This document shows, one piece after another, positions 26,772-34,393 of a DNA stretch of 34,708 nucleotides. The stretch is from Oscillospiraceae bacterium (GTDB taxonomy: Bacteria > Bacillota > Clostridia > Oscillospirales > Ruminococcaceae): assembly GCA_031551695.1 (NCBI GenBank), contig JAVBNG010000056.1, positions 1 through 34,708 of the forward strand. The letters are read 5' to 3'. The position numbers and the translations under genes were made by a program. The notes below the pieces were generated by a model. That model saw only the letters and a program-made list of their open reading frames with translations. It did no database searches and was not told where the DNA came from. How positions within the stretch are numbered: position 1 is the stretch's first letter; every line of letters starts with the position of its first letter.

Positions 26772-28697
26772 CTATTTTTCGCCCGCGAATTTCCAGCCCA
26801 GCAGGCGGGACGAGTTGAGCACGACGAAAATGGACGACGCATTGTGGATGATGGCGGCTAAAATCGGGTTCAAAAAACCGAGGCCCGACAGCGCGATGCC
26901 GATGACATTCACGAATACGGCAAACACCCAAATATTTTGCTGGATGATGCGGTAGGTGCGGCGGCACAGGGCAAAAATGGCGGGCAGAGCGTCGATATTG
27001 TCCGACATCAGGGTGATGGACGCCGCCTCAATGGCAACGTCCGTGCCCGCGGCCCCCATGGCGATGCCCACGTCCGCCAGCGCCAGCGCGGGCGCGTCGT
27101 TCACGCCGTCGCCCACCATGGCCACCACTTCGCCCTTCGCCTTCATTTCTTTAATGGCGTCCAGCTTTTCCTCCGGCAGCAGGTTCGCCTTGAACTCGTC
27201 AATGCCCGCCTCGGCGCAAATGGCCTTCGCCGTGTACTCGTTGTCGCCGGTCAGCATCACGATATGCTGGATGCCGATGTCCCTTAGCTTTTGCATGGAA
27301 GCAGGCACGGTTTCGCGGATGGTGTCCGCCACAGAGAGCGCCCCCAGCACCCGGCCGTCCTTCACGGCAACCAGCGCCGTGCGGCCAAAGCTCTCTTCCT
27401 GCCGCACAAAGGGCATGATTTCGTCCGCTCCCGCGGGGGCGTCCTCCAGCAGCTTTTTGTTCGAAACCTCATACACCGCGCCGTTGTCCACAGCCTTCAC
27501 GCCCCGGCCAAACAGCATTTCAAATTCGGCGTTGGGGATGTCTTTCATCCTCATCTGTTTTTGGCCTGTTAAAAACGAAACAACGGCCTTTGCAATGGGG
27601 TGGTTCGAGTTCTTCTCGCAAACAGCCAAGCTATACAAAAACTCTTCCTCCGAAGCGCCCGGGGCAACCTGCGTCGCAATCACCTCCGGCGTACCGTTTG
27701 TGATGGTGCCGGTTTTATCAAGGCACAGGGTGGTCACTTTGGCGCTTGTTTCAATGGCCACGCCGCCTTTGATGAGCACGCCGCGCTTGGCCCGGTTGCC
27801 CACGCTGGCCACCACCGCCGTGGGCGTGGCCAGCACCAGCGCGCAGGGGCACGCGATGACAAGGATGGTCATCACACGCATGATGTCCCGCGTGATGAGG
27901 AACGTGATGACGCAGATGACAAGGATGATGGGCAAAAAATACTGGGCGAACACGTCGGCGGATTTTTGGGCGTCGCCCTTGTTCTCCTGCGCGGCCTTCA
28001 CCGTGGCGATGATTTTGCCCAGCACGGTGTTGCTGCCCAGCTTTTCCGCCTCTATCTCAATCACGCCGGTCTCGTTCAACGTGCCCACAAACACCTTGTC
28101 GCCCACGGTTTTGTCCGCCGGCATGGACTCGCCCGTGATGGACGCCTCGTTGATGGCGGCCTGCCCCTTTTTGATCACGCCGTCTACCGCTATTTTTTCG
28201 CCCGCGCGCACCTGGATCATGCTGCCCACGCGCACGCTTTTCAGCGGCACTTCTTTGTACTCGCCGTCCACCAGCATACGGCAGGTGGGCGGCACCAGGC
28301 GAATGAGCTCCCGCACGGCGTTTTTGGTTTTCTCCATGGTCAAATCTTCCAAAAACTCGCCGAAGATCATCATGAACGCCACAATGGCGCCGGACAGGTA
28401 TTCCCCCACCGCCGTGGTGCCGATGAGGGCCAGCACCACCAGCATGCCCGCGGTGATTTTCTTTTTGGCGATGGTTGCCTGCACGGTGGACTTGATAACG
28501 AACACCCCGCCCAGAACAAGCGGGAGGATGGACACGGGGAACGGAATGACCCCCACCCACAAATAATCGAACAGCGCGCCCAGAACGATGAGCACCGCCA
28601 GCACGGCGGGGAAAATGAACACTTTAAAATTAAAAGACGATTTTTTCTTCGCCTTTTGGGCCGCAGCCGCTGCAGCCGGCTGTTTCACTGCTTCCAT
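26772..28697 (-). CDS. P1B-type heavy-metal translocating ATPase with no N-terminal metal-binding (HMA/CxxC) domain
   Basis: CPC motif in VIACPCALVLATPTAV. DKTGTIT phosphorylation site. GDGVNDAPAL hinge. HNASSIFVVLNS in the last TM. The ATG at 28697 has a GGGAGG RBS. The GTG at 28727 from the ORF track is probably upstream leader. Confidence 0.85.
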   Translation of the reverse strand: MEAVKQPAAAAAAQKAKKKSSFNFKVFIFPAVLAVLIVLGALFDYLWVGVIPFPVSILPLVLGGVFVIKSTVQATIAKKKITAGMLVVLALIGTTAVGEYLSGAIVAFMMIFGEFLEDLTMEKTKNAVRELIRLVPPTCRMLVDGEYKEVPLKSVRVGSMIQVRAGEKIAVDGVIKKGQAAINEASITGESMPADKTVGDKVFVGTLNETGVIEIEAEKLGSNTVLGKIIATVKAAQENKGDAQKSADVFAQYFLPIILVICVITFLITRDIMRVMTILVIACPCALVLATPTAVVASVGNRAKRGVLIKGGVAIETSAKVTTLCLDKTGTITNGTPEVIATQVAPGASEEEFLYSLAVCEKNSNHPIAKAVVSFLTGQKQMRMKDIPNAEFEMLFGRGVKAVDNGAVYEVSNKKLLEDAPAGADEIMPFVRQEESFGRTALVAVKDGRVLGALSVADTIRETVPASMQKLRDIGIQHIVMLTGDNEYTAKAICAEAGIDEFKANLLPEEKLDAIKEMKAKGEVVAMVGDGVNDAPALALADVGIAMGAAGTDVAIEAASITLMSDNIDALPAIFALCRRTYRIIQQNIWVFAVFVNVIGIALSGLGFLNPILAAIIHNASSIFVVLNSSRLLGWKFAGEK

Positions 28698-28727
28698 GGT
28701 CGCGCCTCCCTCAGTCTTGCATCCCAC

Positions 28728-28785
28728 ATCCCCCCATGGGGGTTATTCTTGTGTTCATTATATGCCCCTTGCCGCGGGTTGTCAA
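28728..28785 (-). promoter_or_regulatory. Promoter-operator module A: TTGACA (28785-28780), 17 nt, TATAAT (28762-28757), then the palindrome ATCCCCCCATGGGGGTTAT (28728-28746) in the leader of the ATPase operon
   Basis: Consensus hexamers with ideal 17-nt spacing, read on the minus strand. The C6-AT-G5 tract palindrome flanked by AT matches the CsoR/RcnR operator architecture. Confidence 0.6.
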
Positions 28786-29837
28786 GCGGGAAAACCAGCC
28801 AGTTCACGAATCACTTGCGAAAGGCACCGGTACGCCAGCAACAGCGACGCTTCGGAAATATATTCGCCCTTGCCGTGGATGCCGCCCACGCGGTTGCCCG
28901 GGTGCAGCGGAAAAAAGCCCAGCACCGGCAGGCCCGCCGCGCGGAAGTGCCGGTTGTCGCTTTGGCCGGGGGCAATGTAGGGCATGGCGCCCCACGCGTG
29001 CTCCATTGCCCGCAGCACACCCGATATGGCAGGCAATGCGCGCCGGTACAGTGCCGAAGATGGCATCCGCGCATATTCCGGCGCTTCCAGCAGTGCCGCA
29101 AGGCCGCTGTAAAAATGCCGCTGCGGAATGTGCCGCCCGCCAAAAAGCCCCGGCAGCGCCCGGATGTAACCCAGCGTGGTTTCGTCGTAAAGGCCGAGGA
29201 CGGCGGCGCGGCGGTACAGTGCCTGCTGTTTTTCCAACGAGGGCGGCGCGCCCGGCCCATCGGCCTTTTGCAGGCCCATTTCTCCGGTTTGCACAGTGAA
29301 CAGCCACTTATCCCCCATCGGCACCGGAATGCCGCCGCCTTCCCCCAGCACAAGGGCCACGCGGCGGAACACGTCCGTTTGCTCCAACAGCCACTTTGTG
29401 CCAAGCTCGCCGCCGGTTTCTTCATCGGCGGTTGCGGCAAACAGCACGGTTTTTTGCGGCGTGCGGCCGCTTTGCGCCATGGCGCACAGCACATGGGCCC
29501 AAACGGCGGCGTTGCCCTTGCAGTCCAGCGTGCCGCGGCCGTACAGCCTGCCGTTTTTGCGCACAAGCCGCGTGGAAGAAACGCCTACGGGCGTTTCATA
29601 GGCGGCGGTGTCCAGGTGGGTGTGCACCAAAATGCTTTCCTCGCTTCGCCCGGGTATTCGCGCCACCAGGCTCCCCCGGCCGGGAAGGGGCTCGTGCAGC
29701 GTGTTTTCCACGCCGCACCGCCGGAAAAAGGCATCCAAAATTTCGGCCGCCCGCGTTTCGTTATGCGCCGGGGGCGTTGTATCGGTATTGACAAGCCCGG
29801 AGAGAAGTGCAATCATAGAAGCAAGCATATCCCCCAT
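28782..29837 (-). CDS. M20-family metallopeptidase (ArgE/DapE/PepV/aminoacylase-like)
   Basis: Motifs HTHLDTA and GRGTLDCKG (compare HxDVV and GRGAxDxKG of M20), and the ATADEETGGELG metal-ligand region. The true start is downstream of promoter B (ATG at 29837, 29828 or 29816). The ORF-track TTG at 29891 lies inside the -35 hexamer. Confidence 0.75.
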   Translation of the reverse strand: MGDMLASMIALLSGLVNTDTTPPAHNETRAAEILDAFFRRCGVENTLHEPLPGRGSLVARIPGRSEESILVHTHLDTAAYETPVGVSSTRLVRKNGRLYGRGTLDCKGNAAVWAHVLCAMAQSGRTPQKTVLFAATADEETGGELGTKWLLEQTDVFRRVALVLGEGGGIPVPMGDKWLFTVQTGEMGLQKADGPGAPPSLEKQQALYRRAAVLGLYDETTLGYIRALPGLFGGRHIPQRHFYSGLAALLEAPEYARMPSSALYRRALPAISGVLRAMEHAWGAMPYIAPGQSDNRHFRAAGLPVLGFFPLHPGNRVGGIHGKGEYISEASLLLAYRCLSQVIRELAGFPA

Positions 29838-29891
29838 CCCCCCATATGGTAACTGTGTTCGCAGTATATGCCCGGCGGGGGTTTCTGTCAA
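29827..29891 (-). promoter_or_regulatory. Promoter-operator module B: TTGACA (29891-29886), 17 nt, TATACT (29868-29863), then the G/C-tract element ATAT-C5-AT-C6-ATATGG (29827-29849) upstream of the M20 gene. It also lies in the intergenic region before the divergent CsoR-like gene.
   Basis: About 65 bp shares blocks with module A (tgtcaagcggg, tatatgccc, tgtgttc, C/G tracts), read directly. Confidence 0.6.
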
Positions 29892-29934
29892 GCGGGCGGC
29901 GGCTTCGCGCCCCTTTCACGGAGGTGACACACAC

Positions 29935-30246
29935 ATGGACGACCACGGCCACGGCCATTCCCACACCCATTCGCCGGAGGATTACCAGCGGATGATCAAC
30001 CGCATGTCCCGCATCGTGGGCCACGCAAACGCCATCAAAAGCATGATGGAGGAACAGCGCGACTGCACGGAAATTCTGGTGCAAATTTCCGCCGTGCAGG
30101 CGGCGCTGAACAACCTTGGCAAGCTGATGCTGAAGGACCACATCGACCAGTGCATCGTGCACGCCATCGACGGCTCCACCGGCGAAGAGGAAAAAAAACG
30201 GGTGCTGAACAGCCTGAATGAGGCGATCGAAAAATTTATCCGTTAG
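29935..30246 (+). CDS. CsoR/RcnR-family (DUF156) metal-sensing transcriptional repressor with a His-rich N-terminal extension
   Basis: Family signature QRMINRMSRIVGHANAIKSMMEEQRDCTEILVQISAVQAALNNLGKLMLKDHIDQC. Ligand positions Cys (RDC) and His..Cys (HIDQC). N-terminus MDDHGHGHSHTHS. GGAGGTG RBS. Confidence 0.75.
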   Translation: MDDHGHGHSHTHSPEDYQRMINRMSRIVGHANAIKSMMEEQRDCTEILVQISAVQAALNNLGKLMLKDHIDQCIVHAIDGSTGEEEKKRVLNSLNEAIEKFIR

Positions 30247-30337: not shown

Positions 30338-30393
30338 TTGACAATTCCCGCGGGGTAGCTTACCATTAACGAATATATTTTTAAAAAATATAT
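30338..30393 (+). promoter_or_regulatory. Promoter of the triple-RidA gene (TTGACA 30338-30343, 17 nt, TACCAT 30361-30366) with a 21-bp perfect AT palindrome ATATATTTTTAAAAAATATAT (30373-30393) at the transcription start
   Basis: Hexamers and palindrome read directly. Direct repeat atatccga x2 at 30389-30414. AAAGGGGAG RBS. Confidence 0.5.
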
Positions 30394-30430
30394 CCGATTA
30401 TCAGCATATCCGACAAAGGGGAGTTACATC

Positions 30431-31699
30431 ATGAGCGGCTATAATGCGGTATTGGCACGAAATACGAACGACGCACCGAACAATGCGTTGTATTCACAAA
30501 CGGTGGCTTTTTCCCACTACAACAACCTTTCGGCCCAGCTGCCCGCAGACCCCGCAACCGGCAAACTGGTGGCGGGCGGCGTGAAAGAGCAGACACAGCA
30601 GTGCTTCAAAAACATCGAGGCCGTGGTAAACAGCATCGGCCACGTGATGAGCGACGTCGTGCGCATCAGCGTGTTCGTGCGTGACATCAAGGACGTGGAC
30701 GCGGTGGACGAGGTGTACAAAACCTTCTTCCCCACCTATGTGCCCACGCGCACAACGGCCGCCGTGGCGGCCCTGCCCATGGACGCACTGGTGCAGGTGG
30801 AAGCGCTGGTCTCCAACGGCGAGGGCACCATTCCAAACGCGCCGCAGGCGGGCGATTTGATCAAGCTGGCAAACAACACGGCAAACGCGCCGGTAAGCGC
30901 CCTGTCCTCGCAGACGGTGGCGTTCTCCCATTACAACAACCTTTCGGCCCAGCTGCCCATCGACCCGAAAACCGGACGCCTGGTGCCGGGCGGCGCGGCG
31001 GCGCAGGCTGCCCAGTGCCTTGCGAACATCAAGGCCATTTTGGAAAGCATAGACGTTCCGTTGGATGATATTGTGAAAATGAACGTCTTTTTGACGAACC
31101 CGGCAAACAACAAGGCCGTGAACGAGGTGTACACCACCTTCTTCCCGGACTCCGGCATCGCCCGCGCCGCGGCCTACATGCCCGCGCGCACCACCATCGT
31201 CGCCGACGCTTTGCCCATGGGCGCTTTGGTGCAGATGGAAGCCGTGGTGTCCCACGGGGACGGCACGCCCCCGCAGGCGGTGGAGGACCGGCATGGCCTG
31301 ATTATTGAGGCAAACAACACGGACAGCGCGCCGAAAAGCCCGCTCTCCACGCAAACGGTGGCCTTCTCGCACTACAACCATCTTTCCGCCCAACTGCCGC
31401 GAGACCCGAAAACCGGCAAAACCGTGGCCGGCGGCGCAAAGGAGCAGGCGGCCCAGTGCCTTGCCAACATCAAGGCCATTGTGGAGAGCATCGGCCACGC
31501 CATGGCCGACGTGGTGAAAGTGAATATCTTCGTCAAAAACATCGCCGACATCGGCGCGGTGGACGAGGCCTACAAAACCTACTTCCCCGGTGGCGTGCCC
31601 GCGCGGAAGGTTTTGGGCGTGTCCGCCCTGCCGGACGACGCACTTGTTCAAATAGACGCCGTTGTGGCGAACGAGGAAGGGACGCCGCCCGTCGCATAA
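30431..31699 (+). CDS. Single polypeptide with three tandem RidA/YjgF/TdcF (endoribonuclease L-PSP, reactive-enamine/imine deaminase) domains
   Basis: Each domain of about 140 aa carries the RidA pattern (SQTVAFSHYNxLSAQLPxDPxTG ... AQCLANIKAI ... VVKxNxFxxN ... VDEVYxTFFP ... PAR ... ALP ... LVQxEAVV). The three copies are visible as about 420-bp DNA repeats. Confidence 0.8.
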   Translation: MSGYNAVLARNTNDAPNNALYSQTVAFSHYNNLSAQLPADPATGKLVAGGVKEQTQQCFKNIEAVVNSIGHVMSDVVRISVFVRDIKDVDAVDEVYKTFFPTYVPTRTTAAVAALPMDALVQVEALVSNGEGTIPNAPQAGDLIKLANNTANAPVSALSSQTVAFSHYNNLSAQLPIDPKTGRLVPGGAAAQAAQCLANIKAILESIDVPLDDIVKMNVFLTNPANNKAVNEVYTTFFPDSGIARAAAYMPARTTIVADALPMGALVQMEAVVSHGDGTPPQAVEDRHGLIIEANNTDSAPKSPLSTQTVAFSHYNHLSAQLPRDPKTGKTVAGGAKEQAAQCLANIKAIVESIGHAMADVVKVNIFVKNIADIGAVDEAYKTYFPGGVPARKVLGVSALPDDALVQIDAVVANEEGTPPVA

Positions 31700-31728: not shown

Positions 31729-31776
31729 CCAGACCCCCTCCCGCCGCGTCCTCACCTTGGGCAGGCGGGCGTTTTC
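31729..31776 (+). terminator. Terminator-like hairpin after the RidA gene (cccgcc ... ggcggg stem + TTTTCTTG)
   Basis: Inverted repeat followed by a T-run, read directly. Confidence 0.4.
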
Positions 31777-31824
31777 TTGCGCGCAGCCGCATCCGGCATT
31801 TTCGGTCGAACTGCAGCTGCTAAA

Positions 31825-33178: not shown

Positions 33179-34393
33179 TTATTCGATTGCGCCACCCGGC
33201 CGCCCCGCAAAGTTCCGCAGCAGTACCAGCGGCTCTGTGGAGGATTCGTTCACGATCTCCACGCCTTCCTGCGCCGCCTTCGCCGTGATGAAATATTCGT
33301 CGTGGGTAAGCTGGCCATAGCGCAGCAGCGTGGGGCTTTCCAGCTTCTGGCCGCCAATGGCGCCATACCCCTGGATGCAGATGAGCCCCGCCGCCGCGCC
33401 GTCCCGCAGCACGGTGCGGCGCCCCGGCCATACCGTAAGCCGCCGGGCGGAGCAGCCCGCGTTGCGGTAGCAGATCCACTCGTCCACCGCGCCCGTTTCT
33501 TCCATTTCCACCACCGGGCGCACGGGCCGCGGGCGCATCATCCGGTTTTTGTGGAAATCCGGGTCCACGTTGGCGTCCCAGTCCAAAAGGCTCATCAAAT
33601 AGTCGAGGTTCCCCACCTCTTCCGGCGGGCAGTTCATCCACAGGCTGGCCGGGTCGGTGGTGCGGTCCCGGTGCAAAACCGACTGGAATACAGCGCCAAT
33701 GTCCGAGGCAAACTGCGGCTCGTAGGTGCACAGGCTGCCCGGTGCGTGCAGCACGCCGCATGGCACGTCCCAGCCGGTGTCCAGCTCCAGGCGGAAAGCG
33801 CGGGACAGGGCCAAAATACCGTTGTCCCCTTTTTCAAACGCCGCAAGGCACGCGCGCACCTGCTCCTTTGCCGTTTCCGGCAGCAGGCCGAAGTAGGTCA
33901 TGGGCTCCGCGCCCACATAGTTGTTCATCTGCGCCGGAAAAAAATACATTTCCGGCTTCGAGTTTTGGTTCACACGGCGGGCCGCGGCCTCGCCGTGGTG
34001 CAAATGCAGGGCCAAACTGTCGTAATTGTCAAAAAACTTGGCAAATACGGGCCAGCCATGGTGCGCCTGCCAAATGTCTTCGCCCACGGCGTCGCCTTTC
34101 AAATGCTGCACCGCTTCGCGCAGGGGCACCCGCGCCTTACCGCCCTCGTCCGCCACCACGTCGCTTTGCCCTTCGCTTTCGGGGGCATCCGGCCCGTTCG
34201 CGGCGCTTACCGTGCTGGCAATCCACCGCTCGTCAATGCCGCCGCGGCCAAGACCGCAGGCGTAGGTATCGTCCGGGTGCAGGCGCAGGCGGCGGCCCGG
34301 CCTGCAAAAGGAGCGCGGCACCCAGGCGGGCGCCAGCCGCAATACGCCCCTGCCCTCTTCAAACGCCATTTGCGCAATCGTTTGCCCGTTCAT
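33179..34393 (-). CDS. Cupin-fold sugar-phosphate isomerase-like protein, possibly class I mannose-6-phosphate isomerase family. Function uncertain.
   Basis: Segment LALHLHHGE ... NSKPEMYFF resembles the metal-binding QVHP ... HKPE region of type I PMI. The ATG overlaps the stop of the upstream gene (ATGA). Confidence 0.4.
   Translation of the reverse strand: MNGQTIAQMAFEEGRGVLRLAPAWVPRSFCRPGRRLRLHPDDTYACGLGRGGIDERWIASTVSAANGPDAPESEGQSDVVADEGGKARVPLREAVQHLKGDAVGEDIWQAHHGWPVFAKFFDNYDSLALHLHHGEAAARRVNQNSKPEMYFFPAQMNNYVGAEPMTYFGLLPETAKEQVRACLAAFEKGDNGILALSRAFRLELDTGWDVPCGVLHAPGSLCTYEPQFASDIGAVFQSVLHRDRTTDPASLWMNCPPEEVGNLDYLMSLLDWDANVDPDFHKNRMMRPRPVRPVVEMEETGAVDEWICYRNAGCSARRLTVWPGRRTVLRDGAAAGLICIQGYGAIGGQKLESPTLLRYGQLTHDEYFITAKAAQEGVEIVNESSTEPLVLLRNFAGRPGGAIE

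What the first reader, a model, noticed from the sequence alone, without database searches (positions are those of the whole stretch)
30431..31699. Single-chain triple RidA fusion (pseudo-trimer in one polypeptide)
Established knowledge: RidA/YjgF proteins are about 130-aa subunits that form homotrimers with active sites at the subunit interfaces. Here three complete RidA domains are fused head to tail in one 422-aa protein. Each retains the Arg of the PAR motif (PTRTT, PARTT, PARKV) and the C-terminal LP ... LVQxEA strand. The copies have diverged (roughly 60-70% identical by eye), so this is an old fusion rather than a recent assembly duplication. A covalently linked trimer would allow three non-equivalent active sites.
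Basis: partly seen in the sequence, partly recalled or inferred. Interest (0 to 1): 0.6.

Follow-up and report, generated by a model that had tools for sequence, protein, structure and literature searches.

The report
Known triple-RidA ("3x-RidA") fusion protein
The gene does encode three diverged RidA (reactive-imine deaminase) domains in one chain, but this "3x-RidA" layout was named in 2015, is annotated in hundreds of bacterial species, and is therefore an ordinary member of a known though never characterised class.

Summary
ORF 30431-31699 (+) encodes 422 aa with three PF01042/TIGR00004 stretches. The copies are 56-61% identical in protein and 63-74% in DNA. The fusion is old and real, not an assembly artefact. 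More than 550 GTDB species carry a ~423-aa orthologue at 76-85% identity, each domain is closest to the same-position domain of other genomes (240/240), and all three domains are under purifying selection (dN/dS 0.03-0.27).

It is not new. Niehaus et al. 2015 (PMC4433059) named "3x-RidA" (example EF_0115, E. faecalis) and proposed covalently linked trimers. An E. faecalis "RidA family protein" is 68% identical over the full length. At least 53 further divergent triple-Rid clusters exist.

What I add: the three domains deviate from the seven RidA invariant residues in position-specific ways (YANDRPE / SANNRPE / SANDRPD). All keep Arg105 and all replace Gly31 with Ala. The three inter-domain clefts are therefore non-equivalent.

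No structure or assay of any 3x-RidA was found. The AlphaFold model is only moderate (pLDDT 64, pTM 0.65).

The most likely function is a single-chain pseudo-trimeric enamine/imine deaminase. Interest is low.

The parts
30338..30366 (+). sigma-70-like promoter: TTGACA, 17-nt spacer, TACCAT
   Evidence: Consensus scan gives 10/12 matches. The same promoter type, with a similar spacer (TTGACAATTCCCnnnGGG..TTACaAT), lies upstream of orthologues in L083, L082, L051, L017 and L072.
30373..30393 (+). AT-rich perfect palindrome ATATATTTTTAAAAAATATAT in the leader (hairpin or operator; function unknown)
   Evidence: Sequence and MFE fold. The closest relative L083 has a comparable inverted repeat, GATATATCTT..AAGATATAT.
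30415..30423 (+). ribosome-binding site AAAGGGGAG, 7 nt before the ATG
   Evidence: The AAAGGGGAAT-type RBS region is shared by nearly all 79 orthologous loci.
30431..31699 (+). 3x-RidA coding sequence, 422 aa plus stop
30431..30850 (+). RidA domain 1 (aa 1-140). Residues at Y17/G31/N57/N88/R105/P114/E120 = Y A N D R P E
   Evidence: (TIGR00004 102.3 bits alone).
30851..31285 (+). RidA domain 2 (aa 141-285), with a position-specific 8-aa insertion (DSGIARAA). Residues = S A N N R P E
   Evidence: (86.9 bits alone).
31286..31696 (+). RidA domain 3 (aa 286-422). Residues = S A N D R P D
   Evidence: (94.7 bits alone).
31740..31778 (+). terminator-like hairpin CCCGCC...GGCGGG followed by CGTTTTCTT; the gene looks monocistronic
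   Evidence: Sequence and MFE fold. The simple scan did not report it because the loop exceeds 8 nt.

Best explanation
The gene encodes a cytoplasmic '3x-RidA': three RidA-subfamily domains joined by linkers of roughly 15-25 residues. It most likely folds as one covalently linked pseudo-trimer that mimics the RidA homotrimer. In RidA, each active site lies between two subunits: Arg105 and Asn88 come from one, and Tyr17, Gly31, Asn57, Pro114 and Glu120 come from the neighbour. Here that arrangement would give three inter-domain clefts. All three keep the carboxylate-binding Arg, so I infer the protein hydrolyses reactive enamine/imine intermediates (2-aminoacrylate type) to keto acids plus ammonia. 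Because the domains differ at Tyr17 (Y/S/S), Asn88 (D/N/D) and Glu120 (E/E/D), and all carry Gly31->Ala, the three clefts are chemically non-equivalent. Shown here: the architecture, the age of the fusion, purifying selection on every domain, and the residue pattern. Inferred: the fold arrangement, the catalytic activity and the substrate. The gene is transcribed alone from its own strong promoter.
Confidence: 0.62

Rival explanations
1. This is a neofunctionalised pseudo-trimer. Like chorismatase (FkbO/Hyg5) or cyanuric acid hydrolase/barbiturase (the Toblerone fold), concatenation freed the sites to diverge, and this lineage acts on a different substrate or in a stress or xenobiotic response, not on 2-aminoacrylate.
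For: A lineage-specific signature, AFSHYN(N/H)LSAQLP, is invariant in all three domains, and Gly31->Ala is universal. Per-domain TIGR00004 scores fall below the cut-off. Protein conservation is extreme, 76-85% across phyla. In about 10 Clostridium-type loci a divergent MerR + GyrI-like regulator and a 19-nt-spacer promoter precede the gene. A precedent for concatenated YjgF trimers with new chemistry exists in PMC3758960.
Against: The Arg105 carboxylate clamp, Asn57 and Pro114 are kept in all domains. The best profile matches remain RidA/TIGR00004, not other Rid subfamilies. The chorismatase model scores 17.9 against a cut-off of 325. No conserved pathway neighbours were found.
Confidence: 0.22
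2. The protein is non-catalytic or moonlighting: a stress-activated holdase chaperone or ribonuclease, as reported for some RidA/YabJ/L-PSP proteins after chlorination. The fusion would simply stabilise the trimer.
For: Chlorination-induced ribonuclease and chaperone activities are reported for single-domain homologues (PMC6435465, title and abstract listed). A strong promoter and RBS suggest abundance. Individual Arg residues are lost in some orthologues without loss of the gene.
Against: Site residues in all three domains are under strong purifying selection. Nothing in the sequence points specifically to RNA binding.
Confidence: 0.1
3. The triple repeat is an assembly or duplication artefact, and the true gene is a single RidA.
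For: None found. Some 4-domain relatives (P0002, P0003) do contain exact internal duplications that could be artefacts or very recent events.
Against: The copies are only 63-74% identical in DNA, so they cannot collapse. The identical protein appears in an independent Logan assembly. The same three position-specific domains occur in more than 550 species, including complete chromosomes.
Confidence: 0.01

Closest known systems
3x-RidA (Niehaus et al. 2015, BMC Genomics 16:382; example EF_0115 of Enterococcus faecalis V583)
   Same: Three RidA-subfamily domains fused in tandem in a protein of about 420 aa, presumed to be a covalently linked trimer. An E. faecalis 'RidA family protein' of 422 aa is 68% identical over the full length and shares the AFSHYN..SAQLP signature.
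   Different: Nothing architectural. The window protein has Y/S/S at Tyr17 and Arg in all three domains. The E. faecalis protein has A/A/S and Lys in domain 1. That the E. faecalis hit is EF_0115 itself rests on my memory that EF_0114 is the neighbouring GH20 hydrolase.
Single-domain RidA / YjgF / TdcF / UK114 homotrimers (e.g. PDB 1QU9, 2UYK, 2B33, 2DYY)
   Different: One chain instead of three. Gly31->Ala in all domains. Tyr17, Asn88 and Glu120 are each kept in only some domains. Each domain falls just below the TIGR00004 cut-off.
Chorismatase FkbO/Hyg5 (PDB 5A3K) and cyanuric acid hydrolase AtzD / barbiturase (PDB 5HWE, 'Toblerone' fold, PMC3758960)
   Different: Sequence identity is only 9-14%. 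TIGR04444 scores 17.9 against a cut-off of 325, and no AtzD family match was found. Those enzymes have remodelled or central active sites. Here the domains are still recognisably RidA.
Other triple-Rid lineages (e.g. P0141, P0142, P0157, P0159, P0198; a 6x protein P0223; a 3x + HAD fusion P0161)
   Same: Three PF01042 stretches in 350-460 aa.
   Different: Only 25-38% identical. They keep the canonical GPYSQ...SGQ motifs, and several carry N-terminal signal peptides by eye. They probably arose by independent triplications.

Membership tests
Rid / YjgF-YER057c-UK114 superfamily (PF01042) | Domain match above the Pfam gathering score | tested here: met
   242 bits against a cut-off of 27.3, in three stretches.
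RidA subfamily (TIGR00004) | Score above the curated cut-off of 106.25 bits | tested here: inconclusive
   The whole protein scores 262.5 bits. The domains scanned alone score 102.3, 86.9 and 94.7 bits, all below the cut-off.
RidA subfamily | Catalytically essential Arg105 | tested here: met
   R107, R253 and R392 in the window. Arg is present in 79, 75 and 79 of 80 orthologues.
RidA subfamily | All seven invariant site residues (Tyr17, Gly31, Asn57, Asn88, Arg105, Pro114, Glu120; list from PMC12218379) | tested here: not met
   The pattern is YANDRPE / SANNRPE / SANDRPD. Gly31 is Ala in all domains, Tyr17 is kept only in d1, Asn88 only in d2, and Glu120 is Asp in d3.
RidA subfamily | Enamine/imine deaminase activity | not testable with these tools
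   This needs an enzyme assay or complementation.
3x-RidA (Niehaus 2015) | [quoted passage not shown] | tested here: met
   Definition quoted.
3x-RidA (Niehaus 2015) | Homology to the E. faecalis example | tested here: met
   68% identity over 422 aa to the E. faecalis 422-aa 'RidA family protein' WP_002367615.1. Its identity with EF_0115 itself was not checked by accession.
3x-RidA (Niehaus 2015) | Folds as a covalently linked RidA-like trimer | tested here: inconclusive
Chorismatase FkbO/Hyg5 (TIGR04444) | Score above the curated cut-off of 325 bits | tested here: not met
   17.9 bits.
AtzD/barbiturase (Toblerone fold amidases) | Sequence family match | tested here: not met

The most novel reading that the evidence does not exclude
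The highly conserved AFSHYN/SAQLP lineage of 3x-RidA is not merely a stapled RidA trimer. Covalent linkage would have allowed stable asymmetry, with three different clefts and Gly31->Ala throughout. That asymmetry would give a distinct substrate range or a regulatory or binding site beside one catalytic site. The protein would serve a stress or xenobiotic-inducible detoxification role, as hinted by the MerR/GyrI-type control in clostridia, and would have spread between phyla as a single-gene cassette.
Probability: 0.2. Interest if true: 0.45.

Novelty: already known. Interest (0 to 1): 0.2.

Why it matters
As a discovery it matters little, because the architecture and its 'covalent trimer' reading were published in 2015 and the protein is routinely annotated. 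The remaining value lies in the gap that has stayed open since then. In the literature and PDB copies I searched, no 3x-RidA has a structure or an assay. Yet this lineage is present in more than 550 species, is 76-85% conserved across phyla despite saturated synonymous sites, and shows fixed position-specific differences at catalytic positions. It is a natural system for asking what covalent linkage of a homo-oligomer buys in asymmetry, stability or specificity.

Tried and rejected
1. Assembly artefact: rejected.

2. Conserved gene neighbourhood as a clue to function: all-against-all clustering of 507 neighbour ORFs in about 80 loci found no shared metabolic partner. The only recurrent neighbour was a MerR + GyrI-like regulator in about 10 clostridial loci. 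The CsoR-type gene next door in the window is not conserved elsewhere. It carries the x-C-H-C Cu(I) fingerprint and sits near a CPC-motif P1B ATPase, so it most likely belongs to a metal-efflux module.

3. Riboswitch or leader RNA: Rfam gave no hit in the window, in 8 orthologous loci upstream of the gene, or at a relaxed threshold on L021. RNAalifold found no consensus structure for the conserved Bacillaceae leader block, which looks more like a DNA inverted repeat.

4. Pairing of clefts from correlated residue loss: too few variants to tell.

5. 'One canonical site (d2 Arg/Asn + d1 Tyr/Glu)': weakened, because the E. faecalis and Vibrio versions lack Tyr17 in d1.

6. AFDB Foldseek search: the library was unavailable.

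7. Literature on any characterised 3x-RidA: none found.

8. The PF23925 tag on some homologues is a sub-threshold ELP1 hit, so it is noise.

Full report
OBSERVATION. The window holds an ATG-started ORF at 30431..31699 on the + strand, encoding 422 aa. Pfam finds PF01042 (Endoribonuclease L-PSP / YjgF / RidA) at 242 bits, E 1.2e-72, in three stretches. NCBIfam TIGR00004, 'Rid family detoxifying hydrolase', gives 262.5 bits in three stretches. At the DNA level there are three copies of a 297-nt unit, spaced 414 and 441 nt apart, at 63-74% identity. The third domain reads LVQIDA rather than LVQxEA. The antisense 432-aa ORF is a shadow ORF of a GC-rich gene.

NOT AN ARTEFACT, AND AN OLD FUSION. 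Four results settle this.
- Copies that differ at 26-37% of bases cannot collapse or be produced by mis-assembly.
- An independent Logan assembly of run SRR23967709 yields the identical protein.
- A word-indexed search of 5.8 billion proteins returned hundreds of ~423-aa proteins at 78-85% identity, already named 'RidA family protein' or 'Rid family detoxifying hydrolase'.
The best 80 were all 76-81% identical over residues 1-422. They came from Bacilli, Clostridia, Chloroflexota, and single records labelled Spirochaetales, Flavobacterium, Desulfovibrionaceae and Enterobacillus.

In an alignment of 80 such proteins split into 240 domains, every domain's nearest neighbour is a domain at the same position in another genome (240/240). 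Median identity is 82-88% within a position and 61-65% between positions. Domain 2 carries a position-specific 8-residue insertion in all of them. The triplication therefore predates the whole clade.

Each domain is under purifying selection: dN/dS is 0.03-0.27 in seven pairs. Synonymous sites are saturated between the window and distant members (pS 0.86-0.98). GC3 of the gene follows the host, 0.81 here against 0.27 in Psychrobacillus. The high protein identity therefore reflects constraint, at least in this genome, rather than very recent transfer.

ALREADY DESCRIBED.

A tblastn search against PLSDB found an E. faecalis 422-aa 'RidA family protein', 68% identical over the full length. It lies next to a family-20 glycosyl hydrolase. 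From memory, that is the EF_0114/EF_0115 neighbourhood.

Reading every protein of a 1.84-billion representative library showed three things. The close relatives fall into one 50%-identity cluster. A second cluster sits at 49% identity and includes Campylobacter sp. MG1. At least 53 more clusters of 350-460 aa sit at 25-38% identity. All ten of these that I scanned have three, or six, PF01042 stretches. They keep canonical GPYSQ...SGQ motifs, their repeats look more similar to each other, and several have signal peptides by eye. Triple-Rid proteins therefore probably arose more than once.

Full-text searches found no paper that characterises a 3x-RidA. No PDB chain is a triple RidA; all sequence and fold hits are 108-158-residue single domains.

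HOW IT PROBABLY WORKS. In RidA homotrimers each active site lies between two subunits. In S. sanguinis RidA, Asn89 and Arg103 come from one chain, and Tyr17, Gly31, Asn57, Pro112 and Glu118 come from the neighbour. Only the Arg (Arg105 in S. enterica numbering) is essential: it clamps the substrate carboxylate. Tyr17 and Glu120 help orient the imine and the attacking water (PMC12218379; PMC4433059).

Mapping these seven positions gives Y-A-N-D-R-P-E for domain 1, S-A-N-N-R-P-E for domain 2 and S-A-N-D-R-P-D for domain 3. This is also the commonest pattern among 80 orthologues (24/80; the rest differ at one or two positions). Three conclusions follow.
- Arg, Asn57 and Pro114 are kept in all three domains.
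- Gly31 is Ala in all three domains.
- Tyr17, Asn88 and Glu120 are each canonical in only some domains.

Whichever way round the domains pack, the three clefts differ. That is sequence-level support for 'three non-equivalent sites'.

I considered whether d2 (Asn, Arg) and d1 (Tyr, Glu) form one near-canonical cleft. The tools return no coordinates to test this. The idea is also weakened because the E. faecalis protein has Ala at Tyr17 and Lys at Arg105 in d1, and a Vibrio plasmid copy has Ser at Tyr17 in all domains. Individual Arg residues are lost here and there in each domain, which fits partly redundant sites.

All three domains in all members share a lineage signature, AFSHYN(N/H)LSAQLP, at the first beta-hairpin. 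Single-domain RidAs and the other triple-Rid lineages lack it. Scanned alone, each domain scores 87-102 bits on TIGR00004, just under the 106.25 cut-off. The domains are RidA-like but not textbook RidA.

EXPRESSION AND CONTEXT. The gene sits between terminator-like hairpins. It has its own TTGACA-17-TACCAT promoter (30338-30366), an AT-rich palindrome in the leader (30373-30393) and a strong RBS. Upstream lie a CsoR-type repressor (PF02583, x-C-H-C fingerprint, His-rich N-terminus), an M20 peptidase and a CPC-motif P-type ATPase. Downstream lies glycerate kinase.

None of these neighbours recurs in relatives. I therefore treat the CsoR/ATPase pair as an unrelated metal module. Across about 80 loci, the only recurrent neighbour is a divergently transcribed MerR + GyrI-like regulator in about 10 clostridial loci, where the 3x-RidA promoter has a MerR-style 19-nt spacer. 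This hints at ligand-induced expression in those species and keeps alive the rival that the lineage has a stress or xenobiotic role.

VERDICT. The additions here are the quantified age and spread of the fusion, the position-specific catalytic-residue pattern, and the finding that the class is still uncharacterised. Interest is low (0.2). The most novel reading not excluded is functional asymmetry or neofunctionalisation of this lineage (probability about 0.2).

Noticed in passing
window 26772-30246: A probable copper or heavy-metal module. It has a CsoR-family repressor at 29935-30246 (+) with the x-C-H-C Cu(I) fingerprint and a His-rich N-terminus (HGHGHSHTH). It also has a 651-aa P1B-type ATPase at 26772-28727 (-) with CPC, DKTGT and GDGVND motifs but no HMA domain hit. 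An M20 peptidase lies between them.
   Followed up: partly
L002-L081, 60-450 nt upstream of the 3x-RidA start (e.g. L021 3580-4000, L036 3770-4000, L003 3900-4000): Lineage-specific but highly conserved regulatory DNA lies upstream of orthologues. (i) A promoter block, aACATGTAGTCAAAACGAAGAAAGCCTGCTATAAT, occurs in about 28 loci of Bacilli and Clostridia. (ii) A Bacillaceae block, GGTTTAGACCGGTTTTTTCGGTGCgAAAC, is an imperfect inverted repeat (GTTTAGACCG-N6-CGGTnCnAAAC). It has no Rfam match and no alifold structure, so it is probably an operator. (iii) A near-universal AT-rich 5'UTR plus RBS, tattaataaatttatctAAAAGGGGAATACTATCATG, is shared across phyla.
   Followed up: partly
L039, L040, L041, L052, L057, L067, L068, L074, L076 (about 90-60 nt upstream of the gene): The Clostridium-type loci have a TTGACn-19 nt-TATgAT promoter with a dyad (ACCTTgGA..TCaAAGGT). 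In about 10 loci overall (e.g. L040, L041, L057, L067, L068, L074, L076), a MerR + GyrI-like (BmrR-like) regulator gene lies next to the 3x-RidA gene, divergently transcribed in 7 of them. This suggests ligand-activated transcription of 3x-RidA.
   Followed up: partly
P0002 (Laribacter hongkongensis HLHK9, 579 aa), P0003 (634 aa), P0004 (565 aa): Four-domain relatives contain an exact or near-exact internal duplicate of one unit (d1 in P0002, d2 in P0003 and P0004). These are either very recent tandem duplications or assembly errors. P0002 also has Leu in place of the d1 Arg.
   Followed up: partly
P0005 (ENA, 1434-nt contig): A 423-aa relative has domain order d2-d1-d3, with the insertion-bearing domain first. 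That would reverse the cyclic order of the pseudo-trimer. It could be real or a chimeric short contig.
   Followed up: no
L086 (Vibrio parahaemolyticus plasmid pHLC, NZ_CP114198.1 47358-48623) and six similar 85-104 kb plasmids: A 3x-RidA at 59-61% identity is carried on shrimp-associated V. parahaemolyticus plasmids. It lies directly downstream of an agmatine deiminase / carbamoyltransferase / carbamate kinase / APC permease cluster. All three of its domains read SANNRPD.
   Followed up: partly
L029 (uncultured Chloroflexia MAG): The 3x-RidA gene has GC 0.41 (GC3 0.29) in a locus of GC 0.55. This is a compositional sign of horizontal acquisition, unlike the window, where the gene matches its host (GC3 0.81).
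   Followed up: no
P0161 (842 aa), P0223 (803 aa), P0141/P0142/P0159: Other architectures exist: triple Rid fused to a HAD hydrolase, a six-Rid protein, and divergent triple-Rid proteins with N-terminal signal-peptide or lipoprotein-like leaders, which would be exported Rid pseudo-trimers.
   Followed up: partly
window 33179-34393 (-): A 404-aa ORF with no Pfam match at E<=1e-4, next to glycerate kinase. Not examined further.
   Followed up: no
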